NCBI GenBank assembly: GCA_964507025.1
Contig: CAZDOK010000003.1
Coordinates: 115,123-179,122 of the forward strand
Reading direction: 5' to 3'
Source: an uncultured Anaerolineaceae bacterium
GTDB lineage: Bacteria; Chloroflexota; Dehalococcoidia; Tepidiformales; Tepidiformaceae
Length of the DNA: 64,000 bases
Shown here: positions 1-23,948 of the stretch, piece after piece
Position numbering within the stretch: position 1 is the first letter of the stretch
How the letters are laid out: the number at the start of each line of letters is the position of its first letter
Notes under the pieces: generated by a model
What the model was told of the DNA's origin: nothing
Databases searched by the model: none
Seen by the model: only the letters and a program-made list of their open reading frames with translations
Translations under genes and position numbers: made by a program

Positions 1-697
1 GCCAGTCGTTGGGGTGCTTGGGCGATGGCAAGACGAACACGCCCGAGGAGTGCTCGACGAGCGCCGCCTTGAAGGTCGCACGGTCGAGGGTGGCGACCTG
101 GGCTGCCATCTCGGCGACCGTCACGGAGGGTTCGATGTCGAGCATGATGGCGACATCGCCGAAGCGGGTGTCGAGATCCATCACCAACACCGAGTTGTCC
201 GTATCGCGGGCGATGGCCGTGGCGATGTTGGTGGTGATGGTGGTTTTGCCGATGCCGCCCTTGGCGCCGAAGACGGTGAGAATGGTGCCCGCGGCCTGTC
301 GCTGGACGACTTCGCCGGCGGTGGGGACGGTCCGCATCACCGCTTCGATGGCGGTGAGGAGCTCACCTACCTTGAAGGGATGAGCGAGCAGGTCGCGCAC
401 CCCGGCATGCATCGCCTGGCGGACCAGCGGGAGTTCCGTGGAGCTGGAGTAGGCGATGACGGGGGCTTCCGGGCGGATGCCCCGGACTGCCTCGACGGTC
501 TGGATCGCGCGCGCGACCGGCTCCTCGATGGATGCGAGGATGAGATCGGGTTTGAGTTCTTCGGCGAGGGAGGCGGCTTCGACGCCGTAGCCGCAATCGG
601 CCACCACGGCGAGCCGTGCGGGCGTGAGCATGCCCTGCAGCTCCTGCCGGAAGATGGGGTCCTCATCGATGATCATGACCAGCGGGTTTCGTCCCAT
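1..697 (-). CDS. cpaE: Tad/Flp pilus assembly protein CpaE/TadZ-like (pseudo-receiver domain + ParA/MinD-type ATPase); 3' end lies beyond the window
   Basis: Minus-strand reading from ATG 697-695 (GGGGAGG 6 nt upstream) gives MGRNPLVMIIDEDPIFRQEL. The receiver-like N-domain reads LILASIEEP at the phospho-acceptor position (Ser, not Asp), as in TadZ atypical receiver domains. It is followed by a deviant Walker A, VFGAKGGIGKTT, and MDLDTRFGD. The frame stays open to position 1, so it is absent from the ORF track. Confidence 0.85.
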   Translation of the reverse strand, partial: MGRNPLVMIIDEDPIFRQELQGMLTPARLAVVADCGYGVEAASLAEELKPDLILASIEEPVARAIQTVEAVRGIRPEAPVIAYSSSTELPLVRQAMHAGVRDLLAHPFKVGELLTAIEAVMRTVPTAGEVVQRQAAGTILTVFGAKGGIGKTTITTNIATAIARDTDNSVLVMDLDTRFGDVAIMLDIEPSVTVAEMAAQVATLDRATFKAALVEHSSGVFVLPSPKHPNDW

Positions 698-726
698 GCT
701 TGCCTCCCCTTTCCAGTCCTGTCCGG

Positions 727-1590
727 TCATCGGCGAAGCGCGTCGATGATGAGCTGCTGGAACGTGGGATCGGCCAGCGAGAGGAAGGTTGAGTCCTCGG
801 TCTCGACGACTTCCGTATCGCCCGGTGCGCGGACGACGAGCCGGATCTTGCCCTTCGTTTCGGCGAGCAACACCTGCTGCGTGGCCTCCGGAGCGAGCGC
901 GAGGGTCACCACCGTGCCTTCAGGCTCGGGTTCGGGCTGGTCGACCGGCGAGCCTTCCTCCGTCCCCGCCGCCGGGGTGGTTCCCGAGGCGGGCGCGAGC
1001 TGCCGTTCGAGCTTCTGTTCGACTGCGAGCACCTGGACGTTCTGGGCGATGGTGAAGGCGCGAGTCTCGGTGAACTCCTTGTCGGTGATGAGGTCCTTGT
1101 ACTGGACATCGACGACGGCGATGACATCGACGCGGTCGCCGGGGCGGGTGAGTCCGCCCGGGCTGATGACCTTGTCGACCTTCACACCCATGGCGCGCAT
1201 GCCGAGGGGCACGATGTAGCTGAGGCCGAGGTCGCTTCGGACGGAGGCGAGCTTCTCCTGGACAAGCTGCTCGCCGGCGTAAATGGGGATGCGTGCGACA
1301 CGCCCTTCGACCAGCGACACATCGGAGTAGGCGCCGCCGAGTAGCGCGTTGGCGGGCACCTTCGTGAGTTGCAGCATGTCCGCGGTGATCTCGGCGCGCG
1401 CGGCGATGTCCTGCTTCGCGGTGACGACGGTCGTCTCGGCGCCGCCGGAGGAGTTGCGGACGATTGGCTCATCGCCGCTATCGCGCAGGGCGGCGAAGAC
1501 GAGCACCCCGGTGGCGAGAGCGAGCAGGGTGGCGAGCAGGAGGCCGATCCGGCTGCTTCCTCCCATGGCGAATGTTCGTGCCTCTGTCAT
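727..1590 (-). CDS. cpaB: Flp pilus assembly protein CpaB/RcpC family
   Basis: ORF 727..1590. N-terminal TM helix IGLLLATLLALATGVLVFAAL, then SAF/RcpC-like segments (VVTAKQDIAARAEITADML, GRVARIPIYAGEQL, PGDRVDVIAV). ATG preceded by GGAGGAA. Lies between the tadG-like gene and cpaE. Confidence 0.85.
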   Translation of the reverse strand: MTEARTFAMGGSSRIGLLLATLLALATGVLVFAALRDSGDEPIVRNSSGGAETTVVTAKQDIAARAEITADMLQLTKVPANALLGGAYSDVSLVEGRVARIPIYAGEQLVQEKLASVRSDLGLSYIVPLGMRAMGVKVDKVISPGGLTRPGDRVDVIAVVDVQYKDLITDKEFTETRAFTIAQNVQVLAVEQKLERQLAPASGTTPAAGTEEGSPVDQPEPEPEGTVVTLALAPEATQQVLLAETKGKIRLVVRAPGDTEVVETEDSTFLSLADPTFQQLIIDALRR

Positions 1591-1614
1591 GGCGTTCCTC
1601 CGGCGGGGCGCGGT

Positions 1615-2766
1615 CTAGTCGATGAGTTGGACGATCTTGGTGGTGGCTTCGGGGTCGAACTCGATGATGCAATCCTCGATATTCCCACCGGGGCAGCGGT
1701 CCGGATCGAAGACGTCGAGGTCGACTGGCTGATTCATGATGAAGCGGCCATAGACGATGCATTTGTCCTGGCCGGACTTGATCTTGCAGTCCCAGTTGTT
1801 CTTGCTCGTGTCGTAGGTGTCCTCGCCAGAAACCCAGAAATACGCGAGCAGGAACTGGCCGTTACCCAACTGAGCGATGGGCACATCCTTGCGGCCAGGC
1901 TCGACGATATCGATTGCGAGCACCGGCAAAAGGACCACCGCACTTCGCTGGATGCCATCCGAGTACTGGTTCTCCGGTTTGCAGCGCCACGTTGATTCGC
2001 CCGTGACCACCGGCGGCTGGACGTCTTCCCACGTGTAGCAGTTGGTGGCCTTCGCGGCCTTGAGCCGATCCGTTAGCCCGTTGTTCACGTCGCCGATGGT
2101 CCCGCCGGGCTTCGTATCGATCAGTGGTGCCAGCCCACAGCCGCTTCCCGAGCGAATCGGGTTGGCGCTATTGCCGGGGCCAAGGTCCACCAGCCCGGTA
2201 TTACTGGTGCCATCGGGGCCGCCATTGACGGCGAGTTTGAGCCCCACAAGTGGCGGCGGATTGGTGATGGGGTCATCCGGGTAGTTCGCGGTGCCATCGA
2301 AGTAGGCCGTGTCCTGTACCGCAATGGGGACGACGCAGCGGATGATGTTGAAACTGGCGATCCGGGCCGTGGCCGTGGCGCGGACGGTGGGTTCGCCGAA
2401 GCTCAGCCAGCCGGCGAAGGCCGTGGCGGCCTTCTTCTGGACCTGGACCTGGACCTGCGTGTACTCCTCGCTCACCACCGCCGACACGGCCAGGAGGTTG
2501 GAGAGGTTGTCATCGGCGTAGGCTTCAGCGGCCGCGATGGCGGGCGCCTCGCTCGCCGCGTAGCCGTTCAGCTCCTGCGCGCCGGCGAGGGCGGCCGCGT
2601 CGGCAGCGTTCTGAAGGTTGCGGCGCTGGATATACACGGCGCTCGTTTCGACCACGACCGCGAGGATGGCCAGGATGAACAGGCTCATGAGCGCCAGGGT
2701 CACGATCGACTGGCTCTCCTCGCGGTCCACGCGAACCGCAGCCCCATGGAACGCCCTTCCTAGCAT
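1615..2766 (-). CDS. tadG: TadG-like Flp pilus assembly / pseudopilin-like membrane-anchored protein
   Basis: ORF 1615..2868 trimmed to ATG 2766, which overlaps the tadE stop at 2760. TM segment plus TadE/G-like N-terminal motif SIVTLALMSLFILAILAVVVETSAVYIQRRNLQNAADAAALAGA. The large Cys-containing extracytoplasmic remainder has no fold I recognise. Confidence 0.7.
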   Translation of the reverse strand: MLGRAFHGAAVRVDREESQSIVTLALMSLFILAILAVVVETSAVYIQRRNLQNAADAAALAGAQELNGYAASEAPAIAAAEAYADDNLSNLLAVSAVVSEEYTQVQVQVQKKAATAFAGWLSFGEPTVRATATARIASFNIIRCVVPIAVQDTAYFDGTANYPDDPITNPPPLVGLKLAVNGGPDGTSNTGLVDLGPGNSANPIRSGSGCGLAPLIDTKPGGTIGDVNNGLTDRLKAAKATNCYTWEDVQPPVVTGESTWRCKPENQYSDGIQRSAVVLLPVLAIDIVEPGRKDVPIAQLGNGQFLLAYFWVSGEDTYDTSKNNWDCKIKSGQDKCIVYGRFIMNQPVDLDVFDPDRCPGGNIEDCIIEFDPEATTKIVQLID

Positions 2767-3203
2767 GTCGCCTTGGCCACTGTATTGGTCTCCATCCGCA
2801 TGGTTGCGGACTTGGTGTAGCTGGTTGTCGAGTCGATGCCCGGCACGAGGCCAATGGGCGTGATCCACTCGTAGGTCTGGTTCGCGGTGACGGTAACGCT
2901 GCCGCCGATGGTTGCCGGGCTGGGGTCATAGGCCAGGGTGCCGACGGCCGGGGTCCCGGTACCGCCGTAGGTGGTGGTGACCCGGGCCCCGACGGCCGCC
3001 TGGGTGCCGCCGACGGCGGCGCAGCGCGCGCCTTCGCGAACGGCGTTGGTGAGGCTGACGTAGGAGAAGGCGAACAGCCCGCAATCGACGATGAAGAAGA
3101 TGAAGGCGAGCAGAAACGGCATCGCCAGGGCGAATTCGAGGATTGCCTGGCCGCGGTCGTCTTTCTGGTCTCTCGGAGGTTTGGCTATCACCTGATCAAC
3201 CAA
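2760..3203 (-). CDS. tadE: TadE-like pseudopilin
   Basis: QAILEFALAMPFLLAFIFFIVDCGLFAF is a TadE-type N-terminus. TTG start at 3203 overlaps the flp stop (alternative GTG at 3191). Position is between flp and the tadG-like gene. Confidence 0.75.
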   Translation of the reverse strand: MVDQVIAKPPRDQKDDRGQAILEFALAMPFLLAFIFFIVDCGLFAFSYVSLTNAVREGARCAAVGGTQAAVGARVTTTYGGTGTPAVGTLAYDPSPATIGGSVTVTANQTYEWITPIGLVPGIDSTTSYTKSATMRMETNTVAKATC

Positions 3204-3372
3204 TCAACTCATCGGTTGCGACGCGTGCCGCGTCCACGAGATAGTTCCCGAAACCCAGGAGCACGACGACCATCCCGATGGAGAGAATCGCGATCACTAG
3301 CGCGTACTCGATCGCGGCCTGACCGCAGGATTGGTCGATGACCTTCTGGGCACGGCGAACAACCCGGAGCAT
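3196..3372 (-). CDS. flp: Flp family type IVb pilin (copy 1)
   Basis: ORF 3196..3429 trimmed to ATG 3372 (AAGAGGA upstream); 58 aa. Flp prepilin motif G/QAAIEYALVIAILSIGMVVVLLGF (G/XXXXEY plus a hydrophobic helix). Confidence 0.85.
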   Translation of the reverse strand: MLRVVRRAQKVIDQSCGQAAIEYALVIAILSIGMVVVLLGFGNYLVDAARVATDELIG

Positions 3373-3442
3373 GGTTCGTCCTCTTGGAGTCTCGGGGGTG
3401 GGCTGGCTCCCGTGGCCGGATAAGCCCACCCCGTCCTACCTG

Positions 3443-3631
3443 CTAGCTGATGAAGTCGTCGACGGCGCCCTGAGCCCAGGTGATGGCCTGCTGGCCAAAA
3501 CCGAGCAGGGCGGCCATCAAGACGATTGAAACCGCCGCCACGATGAGCGCGTACTCGATCACCGTCTGGCCTTCTTCTCGGGGCCCCCGCGCCTGCGTCC
3601 AGGCCACTGCCTTCAAGATGAGATTCCGCAT
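3443..3631 (-). CDS. flp: Flp family type IVb pilin (copy 2)
   Basis: ORF 3443..3898 trimmed to ATG 3631 (CAGGAGG upstream); 62 aa. Motif G/QTVIEYALIVAAVSIVLMAALLGF. Confidence 0.85.
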   Translation of the reverse strand: MRNLILKAVAWTQARGPREEGQTVIEYALIVAAVSIVLMAALLGFGQQAITWAQGAVDDFIS

Positions 3632-3646
3632 TTGATTTGCCTCCTG

Positions 3647-3673
3647 TGTACTCTTCCCTGCGGGAATCGTTCC
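3647..3673 (-). promoter_or_regulatory. Candidate ECF-type promoter upstream of flp copy 2 (GGAAC-N17-GTACA)
   Basis: On the minus strand, GGAAC (3673-3669) is followed after 17 nt by GTACA (3651-3647), which ends 15 nt before the flp ATG. The motif was read by eye only and the -10 is not a canonical CGTC. Confidence 0.2.
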
Positions 3674-3728
3674 GTCCGCTCGTTGCGCCTGACCGGCAAC
3701 GCGCCAGCGGACCTGCGCGTTGTCGGTG

Positions 3729-4031
3729 CTAACAGGCCTCCGGGCGGATCCAGAGGGGTGGGAGATAGGGGAGGCGATGTAGCGCGATGCGCCGCACCAG
3801 TCCCCGCCGGGCCGTGGCGATCCGCTGCCACAGTTGCTCCTTGCGCGGGCGCTGGAGCCGCGCGGTGTGCCCGGCCAGCTCATGGAGCCGCTCAGCAACG
3901 TCCATGAGTGCCGTGAGCTCGTTCCGCACGCGCGGTTCCGCGGGCAGGGCGCTTTCCCACGACGCCCCGGCCAGGAGATGATCGATGCAGCGGTCCAGGA
4001 GGACTTCCCGGGTTGACTCAGGCCGTGACAT
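3729..4031 (-). CDS. Hypothetical protein; possible sigma-factor partner (anti-sigma-like by position only)
   Basis: ORF 3729..4046 trimmed to ATG 4031, overlapping the ECF sigma stop (4018) by 14 nt. 100 aa, helical-looking. I found no TM segment and no zf-HC2 motif, so the function is inferred only from translational coupling. Confidence 0.35.
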   Translation of the reverse strand: MSRPESTREVLLDRCIDHLLAGASWESALPAEPRVRNELTALMDVAERLHELAGHTARLQRPRKEQLWQRIATARRGLVRRIALHRLPYLPPLWIRPEAC

Positions 4032-4632
4032 GGATTGGCTCCCCATCGAGTAACTTCCGCAGGCGGCTGAGCGCCCGGAATTGGACCGCCCGCACGGCGT
4101 TGGCGTTCCGTCCTATTCGACGCGCCACTTCTTCGTGGTGGAGGCCTTCGAAAAAGCGTAGGAAGACGACCTGCTGCTGTTCGGCGGTGAGCCGCCGGAT
4201 GGCTTCCTGCAGGCGCCTCGCTTCCAGGCCGGCGAACAGTTCACCTTCGGGGCCGGCGCCGGGATCCTCCGGTTCGCTGGCTGCTTCGAGGCCCGCGACG
4301 TCGCGGGTGGAGCGCAGCACGCTCATGGCCGAGTTGTGCGCGATCGAGAGGAGCCACGGTTGGGCGCTCGCTTCATCGCGGAGGGCGTGGCGGTTGCGCC
4401 AGGCCTTGAGGTAGACGTCAGCGGTGACGTCCTGGGCCCGGTCGGCGTCGCGGACGAGCACACAGGCGTAGCGATAAACGCTGTCCACCGTGCGCTCGTA
4501 GAGAGCACTGAACCAGAGCGTATCGCGGATCGTGGCGGTGCTCGATTTCGCGCGATTCGCCGAAGACGGCTTGATGACCGCAGCAGCGCTTGCCATGACT
4601 CCCCCGCCTGCGCCGGCAGCGACTCGACTCAC
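4018..4632 (-). CDS. ECF-type RNA polymerase sigma-70 family factor
   Basis: Region 2 (VYRYACVLVRDADRAQDVTADVYLKAWRNRHALRDEASAQPWLLSIAHN) and region 4 HTH (LTAEQQQVVFLRFFEGLHHEEVARRIGRNANAVRAVQFRALSRLR). GTG start at 4632; alternative ATG at 4596. Confidence 0.85.
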   Translation of the reverse strand: MSRVAAGAGGGVMASAAAVIKPSSANRAKSSTATIRDTLWFSALYERTVDSVYRYACVLVRDADRAQDVTADVYLKAWRNRHALRDEASAQPWLLSIAHNSAMSVLRSTRDVAGLEAASEPEDPGAGPEGELFAGLEARRLQEAIRRLTAEQQQVVFLRFFEGLHHEEVARRIGRNANAVRAVQFRALSRLRKLLDGEPIHVTA

Positions 4633-4736
4633 CGGATCGGCGCCTGTACGGGTAAGACGCGTGGTTCACTGGTTTGTTACGGGTTCTTCACCGAATTTCT
4701 CAGGGTTTTCCCTATATGAGGCAGTTCACACTGGCC

Positions 4737-6353
4737 TCACTCAGCGAGGTCAGTGCGGCGGAACGCTGTGCCTCCGGGCTCATCGAAGATGAGTTGGAAC
4801 TCCGCCGAGTGTCGGAGGGTCCACCGGAGCATGGCGCAGCAGTCCCGGTCGTCACCATCGGTGCCGCCTAGCCGTCTGTAGGGCTGGCGAGGAATGAACA
4901 CGTGGTCGAAATGGAGGTGGTGCCTGGCGCTCCACCGTTCCAGGCATGATGGGTCCTCGCCGGCGCACTTCTGCAAGTCCTCGTAGGCCTTGATGCGCCG
5001 AGCGAACTCGCCTCCCGAAAGCCACTCGGTGCCCTGTACGGTGGCCACGCTGATTCGCTCGCTGAGGACAGGGAACCATTCGGAGAGCGCATCGAGCGCC
5101 CAGTGTTGCTGGCCCGTCACTACTAACACGGTGGCGGAGGGAGGGGTCTCTAGCTGCAACCGGTAAGCAGCATGGCGTGCTTCCGGCCCAACAGCACGCA
5201 GCGGCGAGGCTCCCGTCACGGGGGCGAACAGCGCCCCAAGAAGGATGAAGCCCATGATGGCGTACATTCCGAGCCGCTCCACCAGGACGAGTCGCGAGAA
5301 CTCGGGGTGGAAGTCGGCCTCGTGCAGCCGGGTGCCGCTCAGAAGCGGCAGCACAACCCGAAACATCGCCTTCGCGCCCAGCAACGCCGCCGGGATCGTG
5401 GCAAGGGTCTCGGCCTTCCTGGGATCGAGAACCAGGACAGCAACGACCCACACGGGAAGAAGCCACTCCCGGCGACCGACGCACCAGGCGAAGCCCACAC
5501 CGCCAAGCGCGGCAACGAGCGGGAAAAGGGGCTCACTGAACGCGGATGGGCCCAGCACCTGCGCCATGGCAGGGCCGTGGGTACCCGTTTGCGAGGCTGC
5601 GAAGAGGGGATCCGGCCCGAGGCGTGCGACGACCCACAGGAGCCATGGACTCACCACGGCTGCGGCCACAATCGCTGAGACGCCCATCCGGCCGGCAACA
5701 GTCCGCCTTTCGTGGCTCAGCACGGCGAAGACCACAGCCGAATAGCAAACGAACAGGCCCATCTGCGGATGCGCGAGCACGGCAGAGCCGGCGGCCATGC
5801 CGGAACCGGCGATTGCGAGGCGGCTCCTGCTCCCCCGCGCGATCCGATACAGGAAAACGAGGGCGACCAATGCGAAGAACAGCCCCGGTGCCCGTGTCAA
5901 TCCCCCACCTCCGATTTCCCAGTCGAAACTGCGGGGGACCAGGGCGAAGAACCAGGCTGCAACGAACGACTCTGCACGTCCGGCCAACTCTCTGGCGAGC
6001 AGGTAGCACACACCGACCGTTGCAGTGCTGAACACGGTTGGCAGAATGCGTTGAGCCGTCTGCGTCTCGGTGCCGGTGAGTGCCTCGAACAGGCGCGCCA
6101 GGTAGAACGCGAGGGGCGGGTAGGCAAAGGGGATGCCGGCGCCGTTGTAGCTGAGTTCCCGTGGAACACGCCAGGAATTGGCCTGGATGTCGGACACCGC
6201 GGCATAGAACATGCCGCCGTCATTCATGGGAAAGCCGGCATCCAGTACGAAGCTGGCACGAACGGCGCCGGCGGCAGCGATCGCCCCCATTAAGAACAGG
6301 AGGTCGGGCCGGCGTCCCCTGAGCCAGTCTGCGCTCGAGGTCAGAGCTGACAC
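4737..6353 (-). CDS. Polytopic membrane protein, GT-C-fold glycosyltransferase-like (ArnT/PMT family resemblance) with a C-terminal soluble domain
   Basis: ORF 4737..6782 trimmed to GTG 6353, which overlaps the stop of the upstream vWA-FHA gene (alternative ATG at 6290). About 11 hydrophobic helices. First loop reads FPMNDGGMFY, followed by YPPLAFYL, which resembles the (H/K)PPL motif of GT39/GT83 enzymes. The N-terminal 140 codons of the track ORF are Arg-rich and overlap the upstream gene. Confidence 0.5.
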   Translation of the reverse strand: MSALTSSADWLRGRRPDLLFLMGAIAAAGAVRASFVLDAGFPMNDGGMFYAAVSDIQANSWRVPRELSYNGAGIPFAYPPLAFYLARLFEALTGTETQTAQRILPTVFSTATVGVCYLLARELAGRAESFVAAWFFALVPRSFDWEIGGGGLTRAPGLFFALVALVFLYRIARGSRSRLAIAGSGMAAGSAVLAHPQMGLFVCYSAVVFAVLSHERRTVAGRMGVSAIVAAAVVSPWLLWVVARLGPDPLFAASQTGTHGPAMAQVLGPSAFSEPLFPLVAALGGVGFAWCVGRREWLLPVWVVAVLVLDPRKAETLATIPAALLGAKAMFRVVLPLLSGTRLHEADFHPEFSRLVLVERLGMYAIMGFILLGALFAPVTGASPLRAVGPEARHAAYRLQLETPPSATVLVVTGQQHWALDALSEWFPVLSERISVATVQGTEWLSGGEFARRIKAYEDLQKCAGEDPSCLERWSARHHLHFDHVFIPRQPYRRLGGTDGDDRDCCAMLRWTLRHSAEFQLIFDEPGGTAFRRTDLAE

Positions 6354-8287
6354 GAATTGAGCCCCTCCAATAGCAGTTCGCTTGTGCCGATGCGTATGCG
6401 CGCATCGGTTCCAGCCAGGGCGGAACGGACAACCGTGCCATCGACCTCCATCCGTGCCGTGGGCGTCGAGGCGTTCAGGCGGCCGTCGCGCGAAATGACG
6501 AAGTGCGCGGGCTGCACGGCGGGGTCGGAGAGGCGGATCGAGCAGAAACTCGCGCGTCCGACCAGTTCGACATCGTCGCGAAGCTCGAAGACTCGCCCGG
6601 CATCCGGTCCCGCGACCACGGTCATCCGGCCCCACGGGCCGGGAGTATCCCCTGGTGCCGCCTCCCGTGGCTCTTCGCCGTGGCCTCCCCGCCGGAGCTC
6701 GGCCCACTCCGCCAGCTGGTTCCCGACACCGGAGACGTCGATCGGTCGTGGTCGCGCGCGGAACGACGAAACGGCGCGCCATCCGCCGTATGCCCCACCG
6801 CCGGCCGCCGCCACGATCGCGACGACGAGCAGCGCGTAGGCCGCGTAGTTGGGGCCCGGCTCGCCCGGGGCGGTGAACCCGTACACCTCCTCTACCGCCC
6901 CGGCCGCGTTGGTGACGACCACACGGACCTGGTGGTCGCCGGGCTCGAAGTCGCGCTCGGGGAGGATGAACTCAAACGGAGGGGACTGGAGCGTTTGGAC
7001 CTCCTCGCCATCGACCCAGAAGGCCACGCTCACGGGCCCCGGCTGCGCCGTGATGGTGAGCCGCAGCAGGTCGCCCGGTTGCAGGTTGGGGACCTCGCGC
7101 GGCGCCACGAGCACCGGAGGCAGGGCCGCTACGCGGAACGTGCGCGTGAGCGTTTCCTCGCCGGGGACGGCCACGCTGAGTGCGTGTGTCGCTGAAGGGT
7201 CGAGGAGGTATGGGTCGAGCCGGACCGACCTGCCGCCGGGCAGTGAATCGATCGCCTCGCCATCGAGAGCGAAGTCCACTGTGGCCCCAGCTGCCACGCC
7301 AGAGACCGACACGATCGTCTCCTGCGCGAGCACGCCAGGGACTTCGTCTATTTCGACCCCGCGCGGAGGTGGGCCTGCGGTTTCGAACGATGCCGCGCCA
7401 GTCAGCCCTCCGGCCGTGACCGTGATGCGGTGTGACCCGCCGGGGAGGTTCGCCGGGAGCGGCACGACCACGGTGTATTGCTGGCGGAGCCGGTCGGAGA
7501 TGCGCGCGTAGAGCCCGGAGAGCTGGGCGGGATCGGTCGCGGCGAAGTACTGGCCGTTGGTCGTGCTGGCGAGGCTCGTCAGGAATTGCTGGTCGACCTC
7601 CTGGCCGAGGCCGACCACGAAGAACGCCACGCCGGCGGAGCGCGCCGATTCGAGGGCCTGTTCTCGGGTGATCCCGCCGGAGGCGGCACCGAAGTCCTCG
7701 CCATCGGAAAGGAGCACCACGGTCCGGCGGGGTTGTGGCGCGGCCGCGGCCAGCTCCGAGGCGCGAACAACCCCTGCGAAGAGCGCCGTGTTGCCCGTGG
7801 CGGTCATCGCTTCGATGGCCGCCGAGAGGGTCCCCGTCTCGCCCGTGAGCGGGACCGGCACGCTCACCGACTGGGCGAAGGTCAGCAGGGCAGCCTGGTC
7901 GTTCGCCTGCATGGCGTTGACCAGCGGGAGGATGGCCTGCCTGGCGGAAGCGAGCGACGTCCCCTGCATGCTGCCGCTGGTATCGACCGCGAGGATGATG
8001 CCGACGGGAAGGGCGGCGTCGAGCCCCGTGGAGACGGTTTCGGGAGTCACTGCCGCGCCGTCGACGGTCACGCCGAACGATTCGGCCGCGAGTCCCGCGA
8101 CGGGGTTGCTCGCACCATCGAGGACGGCGAGGGAGAGCGTGAGCTGGCGCTCTTCCACGCGGACGGCGACCACATCGAGCCGCGCCGGCGATTGCTGTGC
8201 CTGTGACCAGCCGGATGGGACGGCAGCGAGGCACATCACCAGGAGCACGATGATCGTTCGTGGCCGCCGGGTTCGGGGCGTGTTCAC
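6341..8287 (-). CDS. Secreted vWA domain - Ig-like region - single TM - cytoplasmic FHA domain protein
   Basis: Signal peptide MNTPRTRRPRTIIVLLVMCLAAVPSGWSQA. vWA MIDAS motif ILAVDTSGSM with downstream TGNTAL and LLSDGED. TM helix YAAYALLVVAIVAAAGGGAYGGW. C-terminal FHA (VFELRDDVELVGRASFCSIRLSDPAVQPAHFVISRDG). GTG start overlaps the M23 gene stop (GTGA). Confidence 0.85.
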   Translation of the reverse strand: MNTPRTRRPRTIIVLLVMCLAAVPSGWSQAQQSPARLDVVAVRVEERQLTLSLAVLDGASNPVAGLAAESFGVTVDGAAVTPETVSTGLDAALPVGIILAVDTSGSMQGTSLASARQAILPLVNAMQANDQAALLTFAQSVSVPVPLTGETGTLSAAIEAMTATGNTALFAGVVRASELAAAAPQPRRTVVLLSDGEDFGAASGGITREQALESARSAGVAFFVVGLGQEVDQQFLTSLASTTNGQYFAATDPAQLSGLYARISDRLRQQYTVVVPLPANLPGGSHRITVTAGGLTGAASFETAGPPPRGVEIDEVPGVLAQETIVSVSGVAAGATVDFALDGEAIDSLPGGRSVRLDPYLLDPSATHALSVAVPGEETLTRTFRVAALPPVLVAPREVPNLQPGDLLRLTITAQPGPVSVAFWVDGEEVQTLQSPPFEFILPERDFEPGDHQVRVVVTNAAGAVEEVYGFTAPGEPGPNYAAYALLVVAIVAAAGGGAYGGWRAVSSFRARPRPIDVSGVGNQLAEWAELRRGGHGEEPREAAPGDTPGPWGRMTVVAGPDAGRVFELRDDVELVGRASFCSIRLSDPAVQPAHFVISRDGRLNASTPTARMEVDGTVVRSALAGTDARIRIGTSELLLEGLNSCQL

Positions 8288-9234
8288 TGGAGCCTCGGGA
8301 GTGGCGTCGGCGTGGGTGTCGCCCGGCGCGGTGTGGGGCTGGGCGTCGGCGTCCAGGTCGGCGTGGGCGTGATGGTGGGAGTACTGGTGATCGTGGGCGT
8401 CGCGGTTGGCGTGCTGGTCGGTCCCGGCGGCGTGGGCGTGGCTCCCGCCGGGGAGCTCGGCTGCGTGGCCGTGGAGGCGGCAGGGACGGCGGTGCGCGTC
8501 GGGGCTGGAGTGTTCGTGGGCGTCGGAGTCGGAGGAATCACCCGGCGCGGCAGGTCCATGTAGCCGGCAGGATCGATGGGGACTCCGCGGAAGCGGAGCT
8601 CCACATGGAGGTGGCCACCGGGCGTGCCTTCGCCGATGACAGTGGCAGGATCGACCGCCATGCCGCTGCGGGCTTCGGTTGATGCCAGGAACCCGGCGAC
8701 GAACGTCCAGTCGTCGCCGCAGTCCACGATGACGTGGGAACCCAGGGTCGGGGATTCATCCACCGCCGCCACCACGCCGGCGCACGCTGCGAAAACGGGG
8801 ACCTCATCGAGTCCCGAAAGCGAGAAATCGACTCCGCCGTGCACCTGGCCGTAGAGCCTGGGCGTCCCGAAGTAGTCTTCCACCCCTGCGTGCGCGCGGA
8901 GCGGCAGAGCGAACCGCCGCCCGCCGTTCTCCCGCAGTTCGGACGCGGGTGGGGCAGGTGGGCTCGCAGGAGGGACGATCGCGCCTTCCGTCAGCCCGCC
9001 GGCCCGGTTGGCCAGGCGCGCATCGGACGGCGGAGTGGGAGTGGCGGAGGCGGACGACAGGGTACGTTCGCCGTTGGTGGTGGTACCAGTGCCGGAGCCA
9101 CCGCGGAACTCCATGACCAGGATGAGCGCTACGACTCCGAGCGAGACCGCGACACCGGCCGCAACGGGAAGCCATGGGCGCCGCGCGGGCTTTCTTCCCC
9201 GGCGGTCGCGTGCGCGCGACCTCTGGTGGGTCAT
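8284..9234 (-). CDS. Membrane-anchored M23 family metallopeptidase with an 83-aa Pro/Thr-rich C-terminal tail
   Basis: ORF 8284..9597 trimmed to ATG 9234, which overlaps the DUF192 stop (ATGA). TM helix WLPVAAGVAVSLGVVALILV. M23 motifs HGGVDF and GGHLHVELR. The tail reads PPTPTPTNTPAPT...TPTITPTPTWTPTPSPTP. Confidence 0.85.
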   Translation of the reverse strand: MTHQRSRARDRRGRKPARRPWLPVAAGVAVSLGVVALILVMEFRGGSGTGTTTNGERTLSSASATPTPPSDARLANRAGGLTEGAIVPPASPPAPPASELRENGGRRFALPLRAHAGVEDYFGTPRLYGQVHGGVDFSLSGLDEVPVFAACAGVVAAVDESPTLGSHVIVDCGDDWTFVAGFLASTEARSGMAVDPATVIGEGTPGGHLHVELRFRGVPIDPAGYMDLPRRVIPPTPTPTNTPAPTRTAVPAASTATQPSSPAGATPTPPGPTSTPTATPTITSTPTITPTPTWTPTPSPTPRRATPTPTPLPRLQ

Positions 9235-9593
9235 CCGATCGCTCCGGCGTCGGCCGGGAACTCCAGCGTGTCGCCTTCGCGGATGCCAGCGGCAGCACCG
9301 CCGGGGAGCTCGATGACTCCGCGGGCGCGGCGCCCCCCGAGAGCGATCCCTGTCCAGGGACGCAGGCGGCGCGCGACCTTCGTGACGGTGCCGTCGCGGT
9401 CGTAGAAGACGGCATCGATGGGGAAGCGCACGAACATCATGTGGATGGAGTTGCAGGGCCGGATGTCGAGCGCGGTGCCTTCGGGGAGCCCGGAGGCGAA
9501 CATGAGCCCACGGGTCCGTTCGAACACGCTTCGCGCGAGCCGCACCTCCGCCGCGAGCACGGTCCCCGTTCCCCTGACTCGTAGACTGGCCAT
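9231..9593 (-). CDS. DUF192 (COG1430/UPF0127) domain protein
   Basis: 120 aa with the family-typical RGLMF, HMMFVRFPIDAVFYD and VIELPGG segments. First gene of the four-gene overlapping operon. Confidence 0.75.
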   Translation of the reverse strand: MASLRVRGTGTVLAAEVRLARSVFERTRGLMFASGLPEGTALDIRPCNSIHMMFVRFPIDAVFYDRDGTVTKVARRLRPWTGIALGGRRARGVIELPGGAAAGIREGDTLEFPADAGAIG

Positions 9594-9682
9594 TCAATTC
9601 ATCCCGCGCGACGCTGGTAAGACGCAGACTACACGCGAAACGTTACGGGTTCGCGGCGGTGGGCGGCACGCTGACTGGCGAG

Positions 9683-9889
9683 TTAGCGGCGGAGCGCGGG
9701 ACGGGTGGCCGGGGCTCTCCCCTGTGCCCAGGATTCGAGCTCGTACAGGGTCGCCCGCTCGAAGGCGACCTCACGAGTGAGGTACTCGCGCTCGCCGGTA
9801 TCGCGGACGGTGGCCAGCCGTCCCATGTAGTAGCGGAGGCGCGCAAGGTGGAGCCGGCGGTGAAGTGCGGGGTCGCATGAGCGGGACAT
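9683..9889 (-). CDS. Hypothetical small protein (68 aa) immediately downstream of ferredoxin
   Basis: ORF 9683..9997 trimmed to ATG 9889, 5 nt after the ferredoxin stop. No recognisable motif; coding status is uncertain. Confidence 0.3.
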   Translation of the reverse strand: MSRSCDPALHRRLHLARLRYYMGRLATVRDTGEREYLTREVAFERATLYELESWAQGRAPATRPALRR

Positions 9890-9894
9890 GGCGT

Positions 9895-10149
9895 TCAGCG
9901 GGCCCGGGCGTGGCGGAAGAAGGCGGTGGCCTTCTCGACATACTCGCGCCACTGCGCGGGCACATCGTCCTCGTGGAATATGGCCGTGACCGGGCACGCC
10001 GCTTCACAGGCCGCGCAGTCGATGCAGCCGTCGGGGTCGATGAAGTACTGGCTTTCGCCCGCCTCGGTGTGGATGCAATCCACGGGGCAGACGGACACGC
10101 AGGACGCGTCCATGACGTCGATGCAGGGTTCGGTGATGACGTAAGGCAT
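9895..10149 (-). CDS. fdxA: 7Fe-type ferredoxin ([3Fe-4S] + [4Fe-4S])
   Basis: MPYVITEPCIDVMDASCVSVCPVDCIH and CIDCAACEAACPV cysteine patterns; 84 aa. Confidence 0.9.
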   Translation of the reverse strand: MPYVITEPCIDVMDASCVSVCPVDCIHTEAGESQYFIDPDGCIDCAACEAACPVTAIFHEDDVPAQWREYVEKATAFFRHARAR

Positions 10150-10159
10150 GGCAGATTCC

Positions 10160-11233
10160 TCAGTCGAAGACGATCACGCTGCGGTTGACCTCGCCGGCCT
10201 TGAGGGCGGCGTAGGCCTCGTTGATCTGCGAGAGGCTCCAGCGGCGGCTGATGAGCTCGTCGATCTTCAGGCGCTTCTGGCGGTAGAGCTCCATGAGCCA
10301 GGGCATGTCGTAGGTCTGGCGGGTGGAGCCGTAGAAGCTGCCGATGATGCCCTTTTCGCCGAGGAACGCGGCGCCCGGGAGCGACACCATCTCGGTTACC
10401 GGGATCATGCCGACGACCACGGCGCGGCCGCCTCGCTTGACCATGCCAAACGCCTGCTCGGCCGTTTTCGCGAGGCCAATGGCTTCGAAGGCGTAGTCGA
10501 CGCCCCCGTCCGTCATTTCGACGACCTTCGCAACGGCCGCGTCCTTCGATGCATCGACCACATCGGTCGCGCCGAACTGGCGAGCGGCCGCGAGCTTCGA
10601 TTCGAGCAGGTCGACCACGATGATGCGCGAGGCACCCGCGAGGACCGCCCCCTGGACGATGTTGAGCCCGACACCACCCGCGCCGATGACGGCGACGGTG
10701 GACCCCGCCGGGATCTTCGCGGTGTTGGTGACGGCGCCGACGCCGGTCATCACGCTGCAGCCCACCAGCGCAGCGCATTCGAGCGGCACGCCGTCGGGCA
10801 CTTTCACGCAGGCGTTGGCGGAGACGAGCTGATATTCGGCGAAGGCCGACATGTTGGCGAACTGGTGGAGCGTGCCGCCGTGCAGCCGGATACGGCCGGG
10901 GCGGCCCAGGCTGGCAGTGTTCATGCACAGGTACGGCTTGCCGAGCGTGCAGTTATCGCAGCTGCCGCACGATGCCACGAATGCCACGACCACGCGGTCG
11001 CCCGGCTTCACACCGGTCACGCCTGGCCCGACTCGTTCGACGACGCCGGCGGATTCGTGGCCGAGCACGATCGGGACCTGCGCCGGGTAAGAGCCCTCCA
11101 TGAAGTGGAGGTCCGAATGGCAAACGCCGCTTGCGGCGGTGCGCACCAGCACCTCTCCCGCGGCCGGCTCATCGATTTCGACATCCTCGATGACGAGCGG
11201 CTGGTTCGCCCCATACATCACTGCAGCCTTCAT
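10160..11233 (-). CDS. Zinc-dependent alcohol dehydrogenase (MDR superfamily)
   Basis: GVCHSDLH and GHESAGVV catalytic zinc motifs, structural zinc loop CGSCDNCTLGKPYLC, and Rossmann motif VIGAGGVGL. Confidence 0.9.
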   Translation of the reverse strand: MKAAVMYGANQPLVIEDVEIDEPAAGEVLVRTAASGVCHSDLHFMEGSYPAQVPIVLGHESAGVVERVGPGVTGVKPGDRVVVAFVASCGSCDNCTLGKPYLCMNTASLGRPGRIRLHGGTLHQFANMSAFAEYQLVSANACVKVPDGVPLECAALVGCSVMTGVGAVTNTAKIPAGSTVAVIGAGGVGLNIVQGAVLAGASRIIVVDLLESKLAAARQFGATDVVDASKDAAVAKVVEMTDGGVDYAFEAIGLAKTAEQAFGMVKRGGRAVVVGMIPVTEMVSLPGAAFLGEKGIIGSFYGSTRQTYDMPWLMELYRQKRLKIDELISRRWSLSQINEAYAALKAGEVNRSVIVFD

Positions 11234-11265
11234 TGAGTCTTCCCCTCTCCTTCGCCTGGTCGCTG

Positions 11266-11715
11266 TCAGAACGTGGTCTCGATGCGCGAGGACAGATCGA
11301 AGAAGTCCTGGAACGACTGGTTGAAGCGGTAGAACGCATCGCGCGCATCGCCGTCCGAGTAGCCAGCCTTCGAGCGGGCGACGCCGTTCGGGTCTTCGCC
11401 ATCGAGCGAATTGAGGGTGTACTTCCCTTCGGCGCGGCCGTGCTGCTTGATGTTCTCAAGCATCGCTCGCCAGGTCTCGGGCTCGAGTTCCAGGTAGAAG
11501 TCCACGTCCGCGAGCCCCGCTTCGTCGATCTTTTCCACCGACGTGATCGAGTAGACAGCGAAGTTGAGGCGGTAGATTTCGTCGCCGCACTTCACCGCCA
11601 TGGTCGTATCGGCCTGGCCGTTCCGCCGCTGGAGTTCGATCTCCTGGTTATAGATGTCGCGGAGTGTCTCGAACCACTCCAGCGACGGGAATTTCAGCGC
11701 AGTCATTGTCGTCAT
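11266..11715 (-). CDS. SCP2-like (sterol/lipid carrier-like) small protein, tentative
   Basis: ORF 11266..11772 trimmed to ATG 11715 (GGGAGG upstream). FPSLEWFETLRD and LELEPETWRAMLENI resemble SCP2-type domains. The assignment is weak. Confidence 0.45.
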   Translation of the reverse strand: MTTMTALKFPSLEWFETLRDIYNQEIELQRRNGQADTTMAVKCGDEIYRLNFAVYSITSVEKIDEAGLADVDFYLELEPETWRAMLENIKQHGRAEGKYTLNSLDGEDPNGVARSKAGYSDGDARDAFYRFNQSFQDFFDLSSRIETTF

Positions 11716-11839
11716 TGTGCCCAAACCTCCCGGGTGCGACGAGTCTACGGAGCGGCGTGCCGGGCCTGCCATCGGGCCGAAGGAGCAACTGGGAGGACCG
11801 AATGGTGTAGGCCCTCGGGGAAGGCGATGTGGGCCACGA

Positions 11840-12520: not shown

Positions 12521-12532
12521 AGTTCAACTCCT

Positions 12533-13663: not shown

Positions 13664-13723
13664 ATGTCTCGCCTTATGCCGGTATCATACGAGCCTGGCT
13701 CGCGCTGGTCTCTGGGGCACCGT

Positions 13724-18220: not shown

Positions 18221-18241
18221 CCAAAACAACTCGTGCCCACG

Positions 18242-18268
18242 GTGCGCACTCCCGGCCGGGAGGCGCAC
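18242..18268 (+). other. Intercistronic GC hairpin between the permease and binding-protein genes
   Basis: GTGCGC-a-CTCCC GGCC GGGAG GCGCAC: 11 bp with one bulged A and a GGCC loop. No U-tract. Could be an mRNA-stability or processing element. Confidence 0.3.
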
Positions 18269-18387
18269 CGGCCACTCCAGAACGAAAGGAGCCTTCGCAA
18301 AGCAGACTGATCATTCGGCCCGGGGGGGCCGGCCGGCTTCAGGGGCCAAAACACGCTTTTTGGGTTTCAAGGGGAAGGGAGATTCGC

Positions 18388-20169: not shown

Positions 20170-20194
20170 TTCCTGACCACGCACGACGATCAGT

Positions 20195-20227: not shown

Positions 20228-20251
20228 ATCGGGACACCCGGGAGAAACGCC

Positions 20252-23914: not shown

Positions 23915-23948
23915 GCGAGAAGCTTAGTGCTCCAGGGGACGTGGCACG

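What the first reader, a model, noticed from the sequence alone, without database searches (positions are those of the whole stretch)
4737..9593. Four-gene overlapping envelope operon (DUF192 / M23 peptidase / vWA-TM-FHA / GT-C-like) inserted beside the Tad pilus locus
- **Coupling:** The four genes are chained by start/stop overlaps: ATGA at 9231-9234, GTGA at 8284-8287, and GTG 6353 overlapping the stop at 6341. Co-translation as one unit is therefore very likely.
- **Components:** A protein of unknown function (DUF192), a membrane-anchored murein-type endopeptidase, a surface vWA adhesin-like domain wired to a cytoplasmic phospho-Thr reader, and a polytopic glycosyltransferase-like protein.
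- **Location:** The operon sits immediately upstream of an ECF sigma pair and the flp-tadE-tadG-cpaB-cpaE genes on the same strand.
- **Hypothesis:** I know of no described system with this composition. It may be a cell-wall remodelling and surface-display module that serves or regulates the Tad pilus.
Basis: partly seen in the sequence, partly recalled or inferred. Interest (0 to 1): 0.6.

Follow-up and report, generated by a model that had tools for sequence, protein, structure and literature searches.

The report
Accessory operon of a Tad pilus
The four chained genes are real and form the leading part of a Tad (Flp) pilus gene cluster in a Tepidiformaceae (Chloroflexota) bacterium, sharing a near-identical ECF-sigma-type promoter motif with the pilus genes; two of the four (DUF192 and a membrane vWA-FHA protein) recur in Tad clusters widely across the phylum, which gives a first functional lead for DUF192.

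Summary
**Observation:** confirmed. Four minus-strand genes are chained by start/stop overlaps: DUF192, TM-M23-Pro/Thr tail, signal peptide-vWA-2 Ig-TM-FHA, and a GT-C enzyme.

**Placement:** they are not an insert beside the Tad locus. They are its first transcription unit.

**Promoter motif:** AACCCGTAAC-N15/16-GCGTCTTACC occurs only twice in the 3.6-Mb genome. One copy lies just upstream of DUF192 and the other just upstream of the ECF sigma gene that heads sigma/anti-sigma/flp/tadE/tadG/cpaB/cpaE/cpaF/tadB/tadC.

**Conservation:**
- In the 11 congeners that carry a gene C orthologue (of 23 searched), DUF192-M23-vWA/FHA is followed by sigma and the tad genes wherever the contig reaches that far.
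- The fourth slot varies: a PMT_2-like GT-C, a GT87 GT-C, or nothing.
- DUF192 directly follows tadC in 16 of 21 Dehalococcoidia Tad loci, and in 18 of 29 loci sampled from the rest of the Chloroflexota.
- vWA-TM-FHA proteins sit in Tad loci of several families. In Actinomycetota the same ecto-vWA module is fused to TadB.
- M23 is a genus-level addition. A second DUF192-M23 pair lies elsewhere in the genome.

**Caveats:** the FHA domain lacks the phospho-Thr-binding Ser and Asn. M23 lacks one catalytic His.

**Verdict:** a new variant of a known machine. This scan noted the sigma-plus-membrane-protein Tad layout before in another Dehalococcoidia genome.

The parts
9620..9648 (-). P1: ECF-type promoter-like motif (AAC)CCGTAAC-N16-GCGTCT(TACC), 27 nt upstream of the DUF192 start codon
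   Evidence: One of only two matches in the whole 3.6-Mb genome. Two matches in the window against 0 in 100 shuffles. Conserved upstream of the DUF192 gene in 6 congeners, 7 genomes with the window.
9231..9593 (-). Gene A: short DUF192 protein of 120 aa with no signal peptide, so presumably cytoplasmic
   Evidence: Pfam DUF192, 69.5 bits. The only PDB relatives are the structural-genomics entries 3m7a and 3pjy. Orthologues directly follow tadC in many Chloroflexota.
8284..9234 (-). Gene B: N-terminal TM anchor, linker, M23/LytM domain (about 8569-8844) and an 83-aa Pro/Thr tail (8287-8535)
   Evidence: Pfam M23. HxxxD and HxH are present, and the His equivalent to LytM H260 is Phe. The tail is conserved in all orthologues and in two paralogues.
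6341..8287 (-). Gene C: signal peptide, beta-sandwich plus MIDAS vWA (about 7487-8005), two Ig-like domains, TM helix (about 6764-6847), disordered linker and FHA domain (about 6365-6631)
   Evidence: Pfam. AlphaFold model with pLDDT 81. PDB profile hits to the FhaA FHA domain (E=1.7e-9) and to ArnB-type vWA (E=3e-13). Fold search.
4737..6353 (-). Gene D: GT-C-fold glycosyltransferase (PMT_2 family; NCBI calls relatives 'GT39') with an extracytoplasmic Cys-containing C-terminal domain
   Evidence: Pfam PMT_2, 57 bits. Model with pLDDT 89 and pTM 0.90. Best folds are STT3/AglB/PglB, then AftA and ArnT. Asp45 in the first outer loop is invariant.
4655..4682 (-). P2: second copy of the ECF-type motif, (AAC)CCGTAAC-N15-GCGTCT(TACC), upstream of the sigma gene
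   Evidence: Conserved upstream of sigma in all congeners examined, with a conserved GGGGGAG Shine-Dalgarno before the ATG.
4018..4596 (-). ECF sigma factor; the likely true start is ATG 4596, giving 192 aa
   Evidence: Sigma70_r2 and Sigma70_r4. TIGR02937 at 72.6 bits against a cut-off of 42.9. The start is inferred from the alignment of upstream regions.
3729..4046 (-). Coupled 105-aa ORF, a candidate soluble anti-sigma factor
   Evidence: Overlaps the end of the sigma gene and is conserved in all congeners at 43-84% identity. No family match. The role is inferred from position only.
2..3631 (-). Tad genes inside the window: flp1 (3443-3631), flp2 (3196-3372), tadE (2760-3203), tadG without vWA (1615-2868), cpaB (727-1590) and cpaE/tadZ with a receiver domain (2-730; continues past the window edge)
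   Evidence: Pfam and translations. The locus continues with cpaF, tadB and tadC on the same contig.

Best explanation
The four genes are the leading, co-regulated accessory operon of a monoderm (secretin-less) Tad/Flp pilus locus in a Tepidiformaceae bacterium.

**Shown**
- The genes are translationally coupled.
- In every congener that has gene C, A-B-C is followed by sigma and the tad genes wherever the contig reaches that far.
- Two near-identical promoter-like motifs of ECF type (an AAC-containing -35, a 16-17 nt spacer, a CGTC-containing -10) lie in front of gene A and in front of the locus's own ECF sigma gene. They occur nowhere else in the genome.

**Inferred**
- *Regulation:* the sigma factor autoregulates. 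It switches on both the accessory operon and the sigma/anti-sigma/flp/tadE/tadG/cpaB/cpaE/cpaF/tadB/tadC operon.
- *A (short cytoplasmic DUF192):* a partner of the TadB/TadC platform, whose gene it follows in most Chloroflexota Tad loci.
- *C:* it places a metal-dependent vWA ectodomain on an Ig-domain stalk at the outer face of the membrane. Through its TM helix and a phospho-independent FHA domain it docks to the cytoplasmic Tad platform or motor. It is the non-covalent version of the vWA-TM-TadB fusions seen in Actinomycetota. It could hold or sense the pilus base or minor pilins, or relay surface contact.
- *B:* a membrane-tethered LytM-domain protein with a roughly 25-nm Pro/Thr tail. It opens or organises the 20-30 nm peptidoglycan layer of this lineage where the pilus must pass, either as a hydrolase or as a LytM-type activator or scaffold.
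- *D:* it glycosylates an extracytoplasmic target, such as the Pro/Thr tail of B, the stalk of C or the pilins. An unrelated GT87 enzyme occupies its slot in some congeners, and the slot is empty in two.
For: **Coupling and domains:**

**Synteny**
- In the 11 congeners with a gene C orthologue (of 23 searched), down to 45% identity of C, A-B-C is followed by the variable slot, sigma, anti-sigma, flp, tadE, tadG, cpaB and cpaE as far as each contig reaches. Genes upstream of A are not conserved.
- Slot content: the PMT_2-like gene in four congeners, GT87 in four, nothing in two, and one contig too short to tell.

**Promoter motif**
- It occurs exactly twice in 3.6 Mb, both times in the right place and orientation, with 0 of 100 shuffles matching.
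- It is conserved upstream of sigma in all congeners and upstream of A in 7 genomes including the window. In G001 and G003 a copy lies upstream of GT87 instead.
- A like motif lies upstream of sigma and of the flp region in a different family.

**DUF192**
- It lies within 10 kb of cpaB in 24 of 47 cpaB-bearing Dehalococcoidia genomes.
- It is directly after tadC in 16 of 21 fetched loci and in 18 of the 29 best loci from 201 Chloroflexota genomes.

**The vWA module**
- Proteins with the same architecture (signal peptide, vWA, Ig, TM, FHA) occur in Tad loci of other families. In several they lie immediately next to an ECF sigma gene.
- vWA-TM-TadB fusions occur in about 14 Actinomycetota Tad loci and in a Chloroflexota-like contig.

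**Envelope:** Tepidiforma has a cytoplasmic membrane, 20-30 nm of peptidoglycan and an S-layer (PMC10284905).

**D relatives:** one sits beside two flp genes, and GT87 lies near another Tad locus.
Against: - Co-transcription and sigma dependence are therefore inferred.
- In four more distant congeners no motif was seen upstream of A.
- M23 is absent from the other 21 Dehalococcoidia Tad loci. A second DUF192-M23 pair sits away from any tad gene, so this pair can work without a pilus.
- Most D-family members are not Tad-linked. The Pro/Thr tail of B is kept whether or not a GT-C gene is present.
- The FHA domain lacks pThr-pocket residues and B lacks one catalytic His, so the biochemical roles are open.
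- No partner of the FHA domain or of DUF192 was tested.
Confidence: 0.62

Rival explanations
1. The operon is a general envelope-remodelling unit (peptidoglycan plus glycan) that belongs to an envelope-stress ECF regulon. It shares a regulator and a neighbourhood with the Tad genes but plays no part in the pilus machine.
For: - A second DUF192-M23 pair lies away from tad genes.
- Three M23 paralogues share the same Pro/Thr tail.
- The D family is a widespread Chloroflexota GT-C family, found mostly in glycan clusters.
- The best PDB match of the FHA domain is FhaA, a cell-wall regulator.
Against: - The strict motif occurs only at this locus, which does not fit a broad stress regulon.
- DUF192 and vWA-TM-FHA are tied to Tad genes in many families, and the vWA module is also fused to TadB in a second phylum.
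- A-B-C never occurs apart from sigma-tad in the congeners.
Confidence: 0.17
2. C is mainly a transmembrane signal receiver for the ECF sigma factor. Ligand binding by the vWA ectodomain is relayed through the FHA domain to the soluble 105-aa anti-sigma candidate, releasing sigma and inducing the pilus. This concerns the mechanism of C and partly overlaps the best explanation.
For: - The C-like gene and the ECF sigma gene are immediate neighbours in distant lineages (L044, L049, L052, L067, L079).
- The anti-sigma candidate has no TM segment, so it would need a membrane partner (sequence).
- L044 has a second FHA protein on the other side of sigma.
Against: - Five of eight C-like genes in other Tad loci have no sigma gene detected nearby, and two loci have sigma without a C-like gene.
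- The same ectodomain is fused to the platform protein TadB, not to a regulator, in Actinomycetota.
- The anti-sigma role of the 105-aa ORF is unproven.
Confidence: 0.25
3. The four genes are chance neighbours of the Tad locus with unrelated functions.
For: The set of four is not conserved outside one genus.
Against: - Start/stop overlaps.
- Fixed order in 11 congeners.
- The shared, genome-unique promoter motif.
- Phylum-wide DUF192-tadC adjacency.
Confidence: 0.03

Closest known systems
Monoderm Tad/Flp (type IVc) pilus loci: rcpC-tadZABC, flp, tadE/G of Chloroflexales (PMC7332563) and of Actinobacteria
   Same: The window locus has the core set: flp pilins with G/xxxxEY, tadE, tadG, cpaB/rcpC, cpaE/tadZ, cpaF/tadA, tadB and tadC. 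It has no secretin.
   Different: - It has its own ECF sigma/anti-sigma pair and twin ECF-type promoters.
- It has a leading operon with DUF192, M23, vWA-TM-FHA and GT-C.
- TadG lacks a vWA domain.
- The prepilin peptidase is encoded at the second Tad locus on another contig.
Bdellovibrio bacteriovorus 'tadC locus', operon Bd0470-Bd0475 (PMC6561027, PMC12034629)
   Same: A Tad platform gene is co-encoded with bitopic membrane proteins that carry cytoplasmic FHA domains and an extracytoplasmic interaction domain. [quoted passage not shown] Earlier notes of this scan say a DUF192 gene follows tadC there too.
   Different: - The ectodomain is TPR there and vWA plus Ig here.
- That operon has several FHA proteins and a PP2C-like gene.
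- It has no ECF sigma, M23 or GT-C.
- It belongs to a diderm predator.
- The DUF192 identity of Bd0471 is not stated in the papers and was not tested here.
ArnA (FHA) / ArnB (vWA) regulators of the Sulfolobus archaellum (PDB 8s05, 5a8j)
   Same: An FHA domain and a vWA-plus-beta-sandwich domain are paired in control of a type IV filament. The ArnB-type vWA is among the best sequence and fold matches of C.
   Different: - ArnA and ArnB are separate cytoplasmic proteins controlled by Ser/Thr kinases.
- Here both domains are in one protein on opposite sides of the membrane.
- No kinase gene was seen among the genes examined around the locus (window 1-13,700), and the pThr pocket is degenerate.
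vWA-bearing pilus proteins: CpaL/TadG of Caulobacter, PilB minor pilin of Streptococcus sanguinis (7b7p), PilY1
   Same: A MIDAS-type vWA module is associated with a type IV filament.
   Different: Those proteins are pilins or tip proteins carried on the fibre. C has a Sec signal peptide and a C-proximal TM anchor, and it is not a pilin.
Dedicated peptidoglycan enzymes and LytM scaffolds of trans-envelope machines (FlgJ, VirB1, EtgA, TagX; SpoIIQ, DipM)
   Same: A wall-directed protein is co-encoded with a machine that must cross peptidoglycan. DipM and SpoIIQ, both non-catalytic LytM domains, are among the best PDB sequence matches of B.
   Different: B keeps all three zinc ligands, unlike DipM and SpoIIQ, but lacks one catalytic His. 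No activity is known. This comparison rests on general knowledge of those systems.
Pilin-linked GT-C/O-OTase accessory genes (TfpW, TfpO/PilO of Pseudomonas aeruginosa; AglB for archaeal pilins)
   Same: A variable glycosyltransferase slot sits within a pilus locus. D has a GT-C fold closest to the STT3/AglB/PglB enzymes.
   Different: - D has no WWDYG motif.
- The pilins have no N-x-S/T sequon.
- The acceptor is unknown.
- The slot lies between the vWA-FHA gene and the sigma gene, not after the pilin gene.

Membership tests
Tad/Flp (type IVc) pilus locus | Flp pilin(s) with the G/xxxxEY processing site | tested here: met
   Flp1 has ...G/QTVIEY and Flp2 has ...G/QAAIEY. The Pfam Flp_Fap hits are below cut-off.
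Tad/Flp (type IVc) pilus locus | Core machine genes: tadE/tadG pseudopilins, cpaB/rcpC, cpaE/tadZ, cpaF/tadA ATPase and tadB/tadC platform | tested here: met
   Pfam. cpaF, tadB and tadC lie downstream on the contig.
Tad/Flp (type IVc) pilus locus | Dedicated prepilin peptidase (TadV/CpaA, Peptidase_A24) in the locus | tested here: not met
   The only A24 match in the genome is on contig C22, next to the second Tad locus.
ECF sigma factor with autoregulated promoter | Sigma-2 and sigma-4 domains only; a promoter with an AAC -35, a 16-17 nt spacer and a CGT -10 upstream of its own gene | tested here: met
   Sigma70_r2, Sigma70_r4 and TIGR02937 above cut-off. The motif is at 4655-4682. Recognition by this sigma factor was not tested experimentally.
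Peptidase M23 (LytM/lysostaphin type) | Zinc ligands HxxxD and the second His of HxH | tested here: met
   VHGGVD and GHLHVE are present in B and in all orthologues.
Peptidase M23 (LytM/lysostaphin type) | Catalytic His equivalent to LytM H260 (the 'Y-x-H-L' position) | tested here: not met
   It aligns to Phe (GFL) against the His of 6smk and DipM in HMMER alignments. The position is Phe in all orthologues and Trp in the C11 paralogue. The LytM numbering is from memory.
FHA domain (phospho-Thr reader) | FHA fold and profile match | tested here: met
   The profile hits the FhaA (Rv0020c) FHA domain at E=1.7e-9, and also GarA and OdhI. The model shows a beta-sandwich at 553-641 with pLDDT around 85.
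FHA domain (phospho-Thr reader) | pThr-binding Arg, Ser and Asn | tested here: not met
   The GR is kept in the window protein. VSRRH of FhaA aligns to VQPAH, and STNGT aligns to STPTA. Distant homologues also lack the GR.
vWA domain with MIDAS | DxSxS, Thr and Asp metal-site residues | tested here: met
   D102-T-S104-G-S106, T167 (GNTAL) and D195 (LSDG) are invariant in 14 homologues.
GT-C glycosyltransferases (PMT_2 / 'GT39'-like) | Polytopic GT-C fold with a conserved acidic residue in the first extracytoplasmic loop | tested here: met
   Pfam PMT_2, 57 bits. In the fold search the matches with E <= 0.05 (ranks 1-41) are all GT-C enzymes, with TM-scores of 0.5-0.58 to the STT3-type enzymes. 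D45 in 'NDGG' is invariant.
Oligosaccharyltransferase (STT3/AglB/PglB) | WWDYG motif in the external C-terminal domain | tested here: not met
   No WWDxG in D or in the family consensus. The invariant motifs are SEWFP and TVQGxEW instead.
DUF192 (PF02643) | Match to the family profile over its whole length | tested here: met
   69.5 bits against a cut-off of 27, covering profile positions 2-96 of 96.
Bdellovibrio-type tadC-DUF192-FHA operon | tadC immediately followed by DUF192 and by membrane FHA proteins in one operon | tested here: not met
   In this window DUF192 and the FHA protein are at the other end of the locus from tadC. In other Chloroflexota, tadC-DUF192 adjacency holds. The Bdellovibrio gene content itself was not examined here.

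The most novel reading that the evidence does not exclude
Short cytoplasmic DUF192 proteins and bitopic proteins with an ectodomain, a TM helix and an FHA domain form an undescribed sub-complex of the Tad platform (TadB/TadC). It would be shared across distant phyla: Chloroflexota here, Bdellovibrionota and Kiritimatiellia according to earlier notes of this scan. The ectodomain (vWA here, TPR in Bdellovibrio) would report contact outside the cell to the motor inside. In Dehalococcoidia a dedicated ECF sigma factor would add a feed-forward loop.
Probability: 0.3. Interest if true: 0.75.

Novelty: new variant of a known kind. Interest (0 to 1): 0.55.

Why it matters
- **DUF192:** this is a widespread family with two solved structures and no known function. 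A strict, phylum-wide position directly after tadC gives it a testable role.
- **The vWA module:** an ecto-vWA domain is either fused to TadB or linked to an FHA domain. That points to a missing extracellular or sensing part of monoderm Tad machines, whose passage through thick walls and whose regulation are poorly understood.
- **Regulation:** a locus-specific ECF sigma factor with two genome-unique promoters makes a compact, testable circuit.
- **Experimental access:** cultured Tepidiforma strains exist, so tests are feasible if those strains carry the locus, which was not checked here.

Tried and rejected
- **Transcript evidence:** Co-transcription and 5' ends were not checked.
- **Intrinsic terminators, sigma-70 promoters and Rfam elements in 3000-10300:** nothing above chance.
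- **Pro/Thr tail of B versus GT-C genes:** I looked for a correlation between the tail and the presence or type of the GT-C gene, as a test of 'D glycosylates B'. There is none. The tail is present in every orthologue and in M23 paralogues elsewhere.
- **D as an N-oligosaccharyltransferase:** rejected as a family member. It has no WWDYG motif and the pilins have no sequon.
- **C as a pilin-type vWA adhesin:** rejected. It has a Sec signal peptide and a TM anchor, with no class III signal peptide.
- **M23 as a general Tad accessory:** rejected. There were no hits in 21 other Dehalococcoidia Tad loci.
- **A larger ECF regulon:** allowing one mismatch gave only six further sites, none convincing.
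- **Sequence search of D against the PDB:** no hits.
- **Literature on DUF192, COG1430 or UPF0127 and pili:** nothing found.
- **DUF192 in Actinomycetota Tad loci that carry vWA-TadB fusions:** not found within the flanks.

Full report
**1. What is in the sequence.**

Four open reading frames lie head to tail on the minus strand.

| Gene | Coordinates | Length |
|---|---|---|
| A | 9593-9231 | 120 aa |
| B | 9234-8284 | 316 aa |
| C | 8287-6341 | 648 aa |
| D | 6353-4737 | 538 aa |

- The junctions are ATGA, GTGA and a 13-nt overlap.
- Public gene calls give proteins of the same lengths: 648 aa and 538 aa.
- Pfam assigns DUF192 to A, Peptidase_M23 to B, VWA plus an FHA-clan match to C, and PMT_2 to D, all above the curated cut-offs.
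- Downstream on the same strand are an ECF sigma gene, a coupled 105-aa ORF, two flp pilin genes, tadE, tadG, cpaB and cpaE. On the contig beyond the window come cpaF, tadB and tadC.
- Upstream are a ferredoxin gene and a small ORF, which are conserved only in the closest relatives.
- The region holds no credible terminator, sigma-70 promoter or Rfam element.

**2. Organism and envelope.**

- Record titles of orthologous contigs place the genome in the Tepidiformaceae (Chloroflexota, class Dehalococcoidia).
- Cultured Tepidiforma are monoderm. They have a cytoplasmic membrane, a 20-30 nm peptidoglycan layer and an S-layer.
- Their wall hydrolysate is rich in Thr, Ala and Pro (PMC10284905).
- That paper does not mention pili.

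**3. The operon belongs to the Tad locus.**

- 11 of 23 congeners searched carry a full-length orthologue of C, down to 45% identity. In all of them the order is A-B-C, then a variable slot, then sigma, anti-sigma, flp, tadE, tadG, cpaB and cpaE, as far as each contig reaches. The genes upstream of A differ.
- The slot holds the PMT_2-like gene in four congeners besides the window. In four others it holds an unrelated GT-C gene of family GT87; that gene appears frameshifted in G001. In two the slot is empty, and one contig ends before it.

**4. A shared, genome-unique promoter motif.**

- Aligning the spacers upstream of the sigma gene showed a block conserved at the DNA level across all congeners. 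It reads AACCCGTAAC, 15 nt, GCGTCTTACC, followed by a conserved GGGGGAG and an ATG.
- The same block, with a 16-nt spacer, lies 27 nt upstream of gene A.
- The pattern CCGTAAC-N14-18-GCGTCT matches exactly twice in the 3.6-Mb genome, at these two sites and in the right orientation. It matches 0 times in 100 shuffles of the window.
- With one mismatch allowed, only six more sites appear, none convincing.
- An 'AAC' -35 and a 'CGT' -10 separated by 16-17 nt is the general pattern of ECF promoters (established knowledge). The simplest reading is that the locus's sigma factor drives both its own operon and A-D.
- The upstream-of-A copy is present in 7 genomes including the window.
- In G001 and G003 a copy lies in front of GT87 instead. 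No copy was seen upstream of A in four distant congeners.
- A similar motif lies upstream of sigma and of the flp region in another family (G136), and near the flp region in G048.
- Recognition by the sigma factor is inferred, not shown.

**5. Each component, and how far its link to Tad reaches.**

*DUF192 (A).*
- It is short, with no signal peptide.
- Among 151 Dehalococcoidia genomes, 47 have cpaB. In 24 of those a DUF192 gene lies within 10 kb of cpaB.
- In 16 of 21 fetched loci it directly follows tadC on the same strand.
- In a sample of 201 Chloroflexota genomes, 108 have an A-like protein. In 18 of the 29 best loci the order is tadB-tadC-DUF192, and 22 of 29 have some tad gene within 1.5 kb.
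- The two PDB relatives are unannotated structural-genomics entries. No paper links the family to pili.
- In the window's genus the gene sits at the front of the locus instead.

*vWA-FHA (C).*
- The AlphaFold model has a mean pLDDT of 81.

| Residues | Element |
|---|---|
| 1-30 | Signal peptide |
| 36-89 and 269-303 | Beta-sandwich |
| 95-267 | vWA domain |
| 324-473 | Two Ig-like domains |
| 481-508 | TM helix |
| 509-548 | Disordered linker |
| 553-641 | FHA domain |

- The MIDAS residues are invariant.
- A profile of the family hits the FhaA FHA domain at E=1.7e-9 and ArnB-type vWA at E=3e-13. Fold search returns ITIH, ArnB, BatB and vWA pilins.
- Against FhaA, the pThr-pocket Ser and Asn are replaced (VQPAH, STPTA). 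Phospho-independent binding is therefore more likely.
- Proteins with the same architecture occur in Tad loci of other Dehalococcoidia families. They often lie immediately next to an ECF sigma gene.
- More distant relatives of the ectodomain are fused to TadB, in the order signal peptide, vWA, TM, T2SSF. This occurs in about 14 Actinomycetota Tad loci and in a Chloroflexota-like contig. In Tepidiformaceae and Thermoflexus the relatives follow tadC.
- The fusion is the strongest argument that the ectodomain is a part of the machine and that the FHA domain docks it to the platform.

*M23 (B).*
- It has a TM anchor, a linker, a LytM domain and an 83-aa Pro/Thr tail.
- HxxxD and HxH are present. 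The His aligned with the 'YxHL' His of active M23 enzymes is Phe in all orthologues.
- The best PDB sequence matches include the non-catalytic DipM and SpoIIQ.
- No M23 gene was found in the 21 other Dehalococcoidia Tad loci.
- The genome has a second DUF192-M23 pair at contig C11, 31643-30183, with 56% and 47% identity and no tad genes nearby.
- Three M23 paralogues share the tail motif TPTITPTPTWTPTP. At least 23 proteins in the genome carry Pro/Thr-rich stretches.

*GT-C (D).*
- The model has pLDDT 89 and pTM 0.90.
- The best folds are STT3/AglB/PglB with TM-scores of 0.5-0.58, then AftA, ArnT, AftD, DPY19 and PMT4.
- There is an invariant Asp in the first outer loop, four conserved Cys in the outer C-terminal domain, and no WWDYG motif.
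- The family has at least 464 members across the Chloroflexota.
- One relative lies divergently next to two flp genes. Another sits in a cluster with PMT_2, GT87, Wzy_C and UbiA genes. A third is unrelated to pili.
- The link of D to the pilus is thus the weakest of the four.

**6. Mechanism proposed.**

The ancestral Dehalococcoidia layout appears to be vWA-TM-FHA, sigma, anti-sigma, flp ... tadC, DUF192.

In this genus:
- a DUF192-M23 cassette stands at the front;
- a GT-C slot opened between C and sigma;
- an extra copy of the sigma promoter was placed before the cassette.

I propose that the sigma factor co-induces both operons. The proposed roles are:
- DUF192 works at the cytoplasmic face of TadB/TadC.
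- C tethers a metal-dependent binding domain above the platform.
- B deals with the thick wall.
- D, or GT87 in its place, decorates an exposed component.

Only gene content, coupling, synteny and motif distribution are shown. All biochemical roles are inferred.

**7. Comparison with what is known.**

- In Bdellovibrio, tadC (Bd0470) shares an operon with FHA membrane proteins needed for predation. Bd0474 has cytoplasmic FHA domains and an outer TPR domain (PMC6561027, PMC12034629).
- Earlier notes of this scan say DUF192 follows tadC there and in Kiritimatiellia. They also say that another Dehalococcoidia genome has a sigma-controlled Tad locus with a built-in membrane protein.
- I checked the published part (TadC plus FHA). 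I could not check the DUF192 identity of Bd0471, and the papers do not mention it.
- ArnA and ArnB of Sulfolobus pair FHA and vWA in archaellum control, but as soluble, kinase-dependent proteins.
- FHA proteins are also enriched in the Myxococcus kil (Tad-like) clusters (PMC12428579).

**8. Verdict.**

This is a real, coupled operon that forms part of a Tad locus. It is a new variant of a known machine. The value of the finding lies in three leads:
- DUF192 as a Tad-platform-linked gene across the Chloroflexota.
- The vWA ectodomain as a tethered machine part.
- A two-promoter ECF circuit.

The four-gene set as such is genus-specific.

Noticed in passing
own genome contig C11: 31643-30183 (outside the window): A second, tightly adjacent DUF192-M23 gene pair, 56% and 47% identical to A and to the M23 domain of B, with no tad genes nearby. 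It is followed by a 228-aa ORF and a zinc-ribbon ORF.
   Followed up: partly
L034, L039, L040, L042 (congeners G022, G001, G003, G006), the slot between the vWA-FHA gene and the sigma gene: A GT87-family GT-C gene of about 404 aa replaces the PMT_2-like gene in the same slot. In G001 it appears split by a frameshift into two ORFs. In G001 and G003 it has its own copy of the ECF-type motif.
   Followed up: partly
L152, L153, L162, L166, L175, L178 (other Chloroflexota): In several genomes the order tadB-tadC-DUF192 is followed, after about 0.8 kb, by another cpaF-like ATPase gene.
   Followed up: no
L148: 9135-11656: A 40%-identical homologue of D lies divergently next to two Flp-like pilin genes, with no other tad genes within 10 kb.
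   Followed up: no
own genome contigs C7: 142304-143221, C11: 30186-31190 and window 8284-9234: Three M23 paralogues share the C-terminal motif TPTITPTPT(W/R)TPTP. At least 23 proteins in the genome have Pro/Thr-rich stretches. This fits the Thr/Pro-rich wall hydrolysate reported for Tepidiforma.
   Followed up: partly
own genome contig C22: about 17800-26050: A second Tad locus (tadE, cpaB, cpaE, cpaF, tadB, tadC) has the genome's only A24 prepilin peptidase gene beside it. It has no DUF192 after tadC, unlike the orthologous loci of same-family genomes.
   Followed up: partly
L044: 7559-9076: In a distant lineage the sigma gene is flanked on the other side by a 505-aa protein with weak DnaJ and FHA-clan matches. 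The sigma/anti-sigma pair there sits between two FHA proteins.
   Followed up: no
window 9683-10149: A 7Fe-type ferredoxin gene and a coupled 68-aa ORF lie directly upstream of P1. They are conserved only in the three closest congeners and so are not part of the unit.
   Followed up: partly
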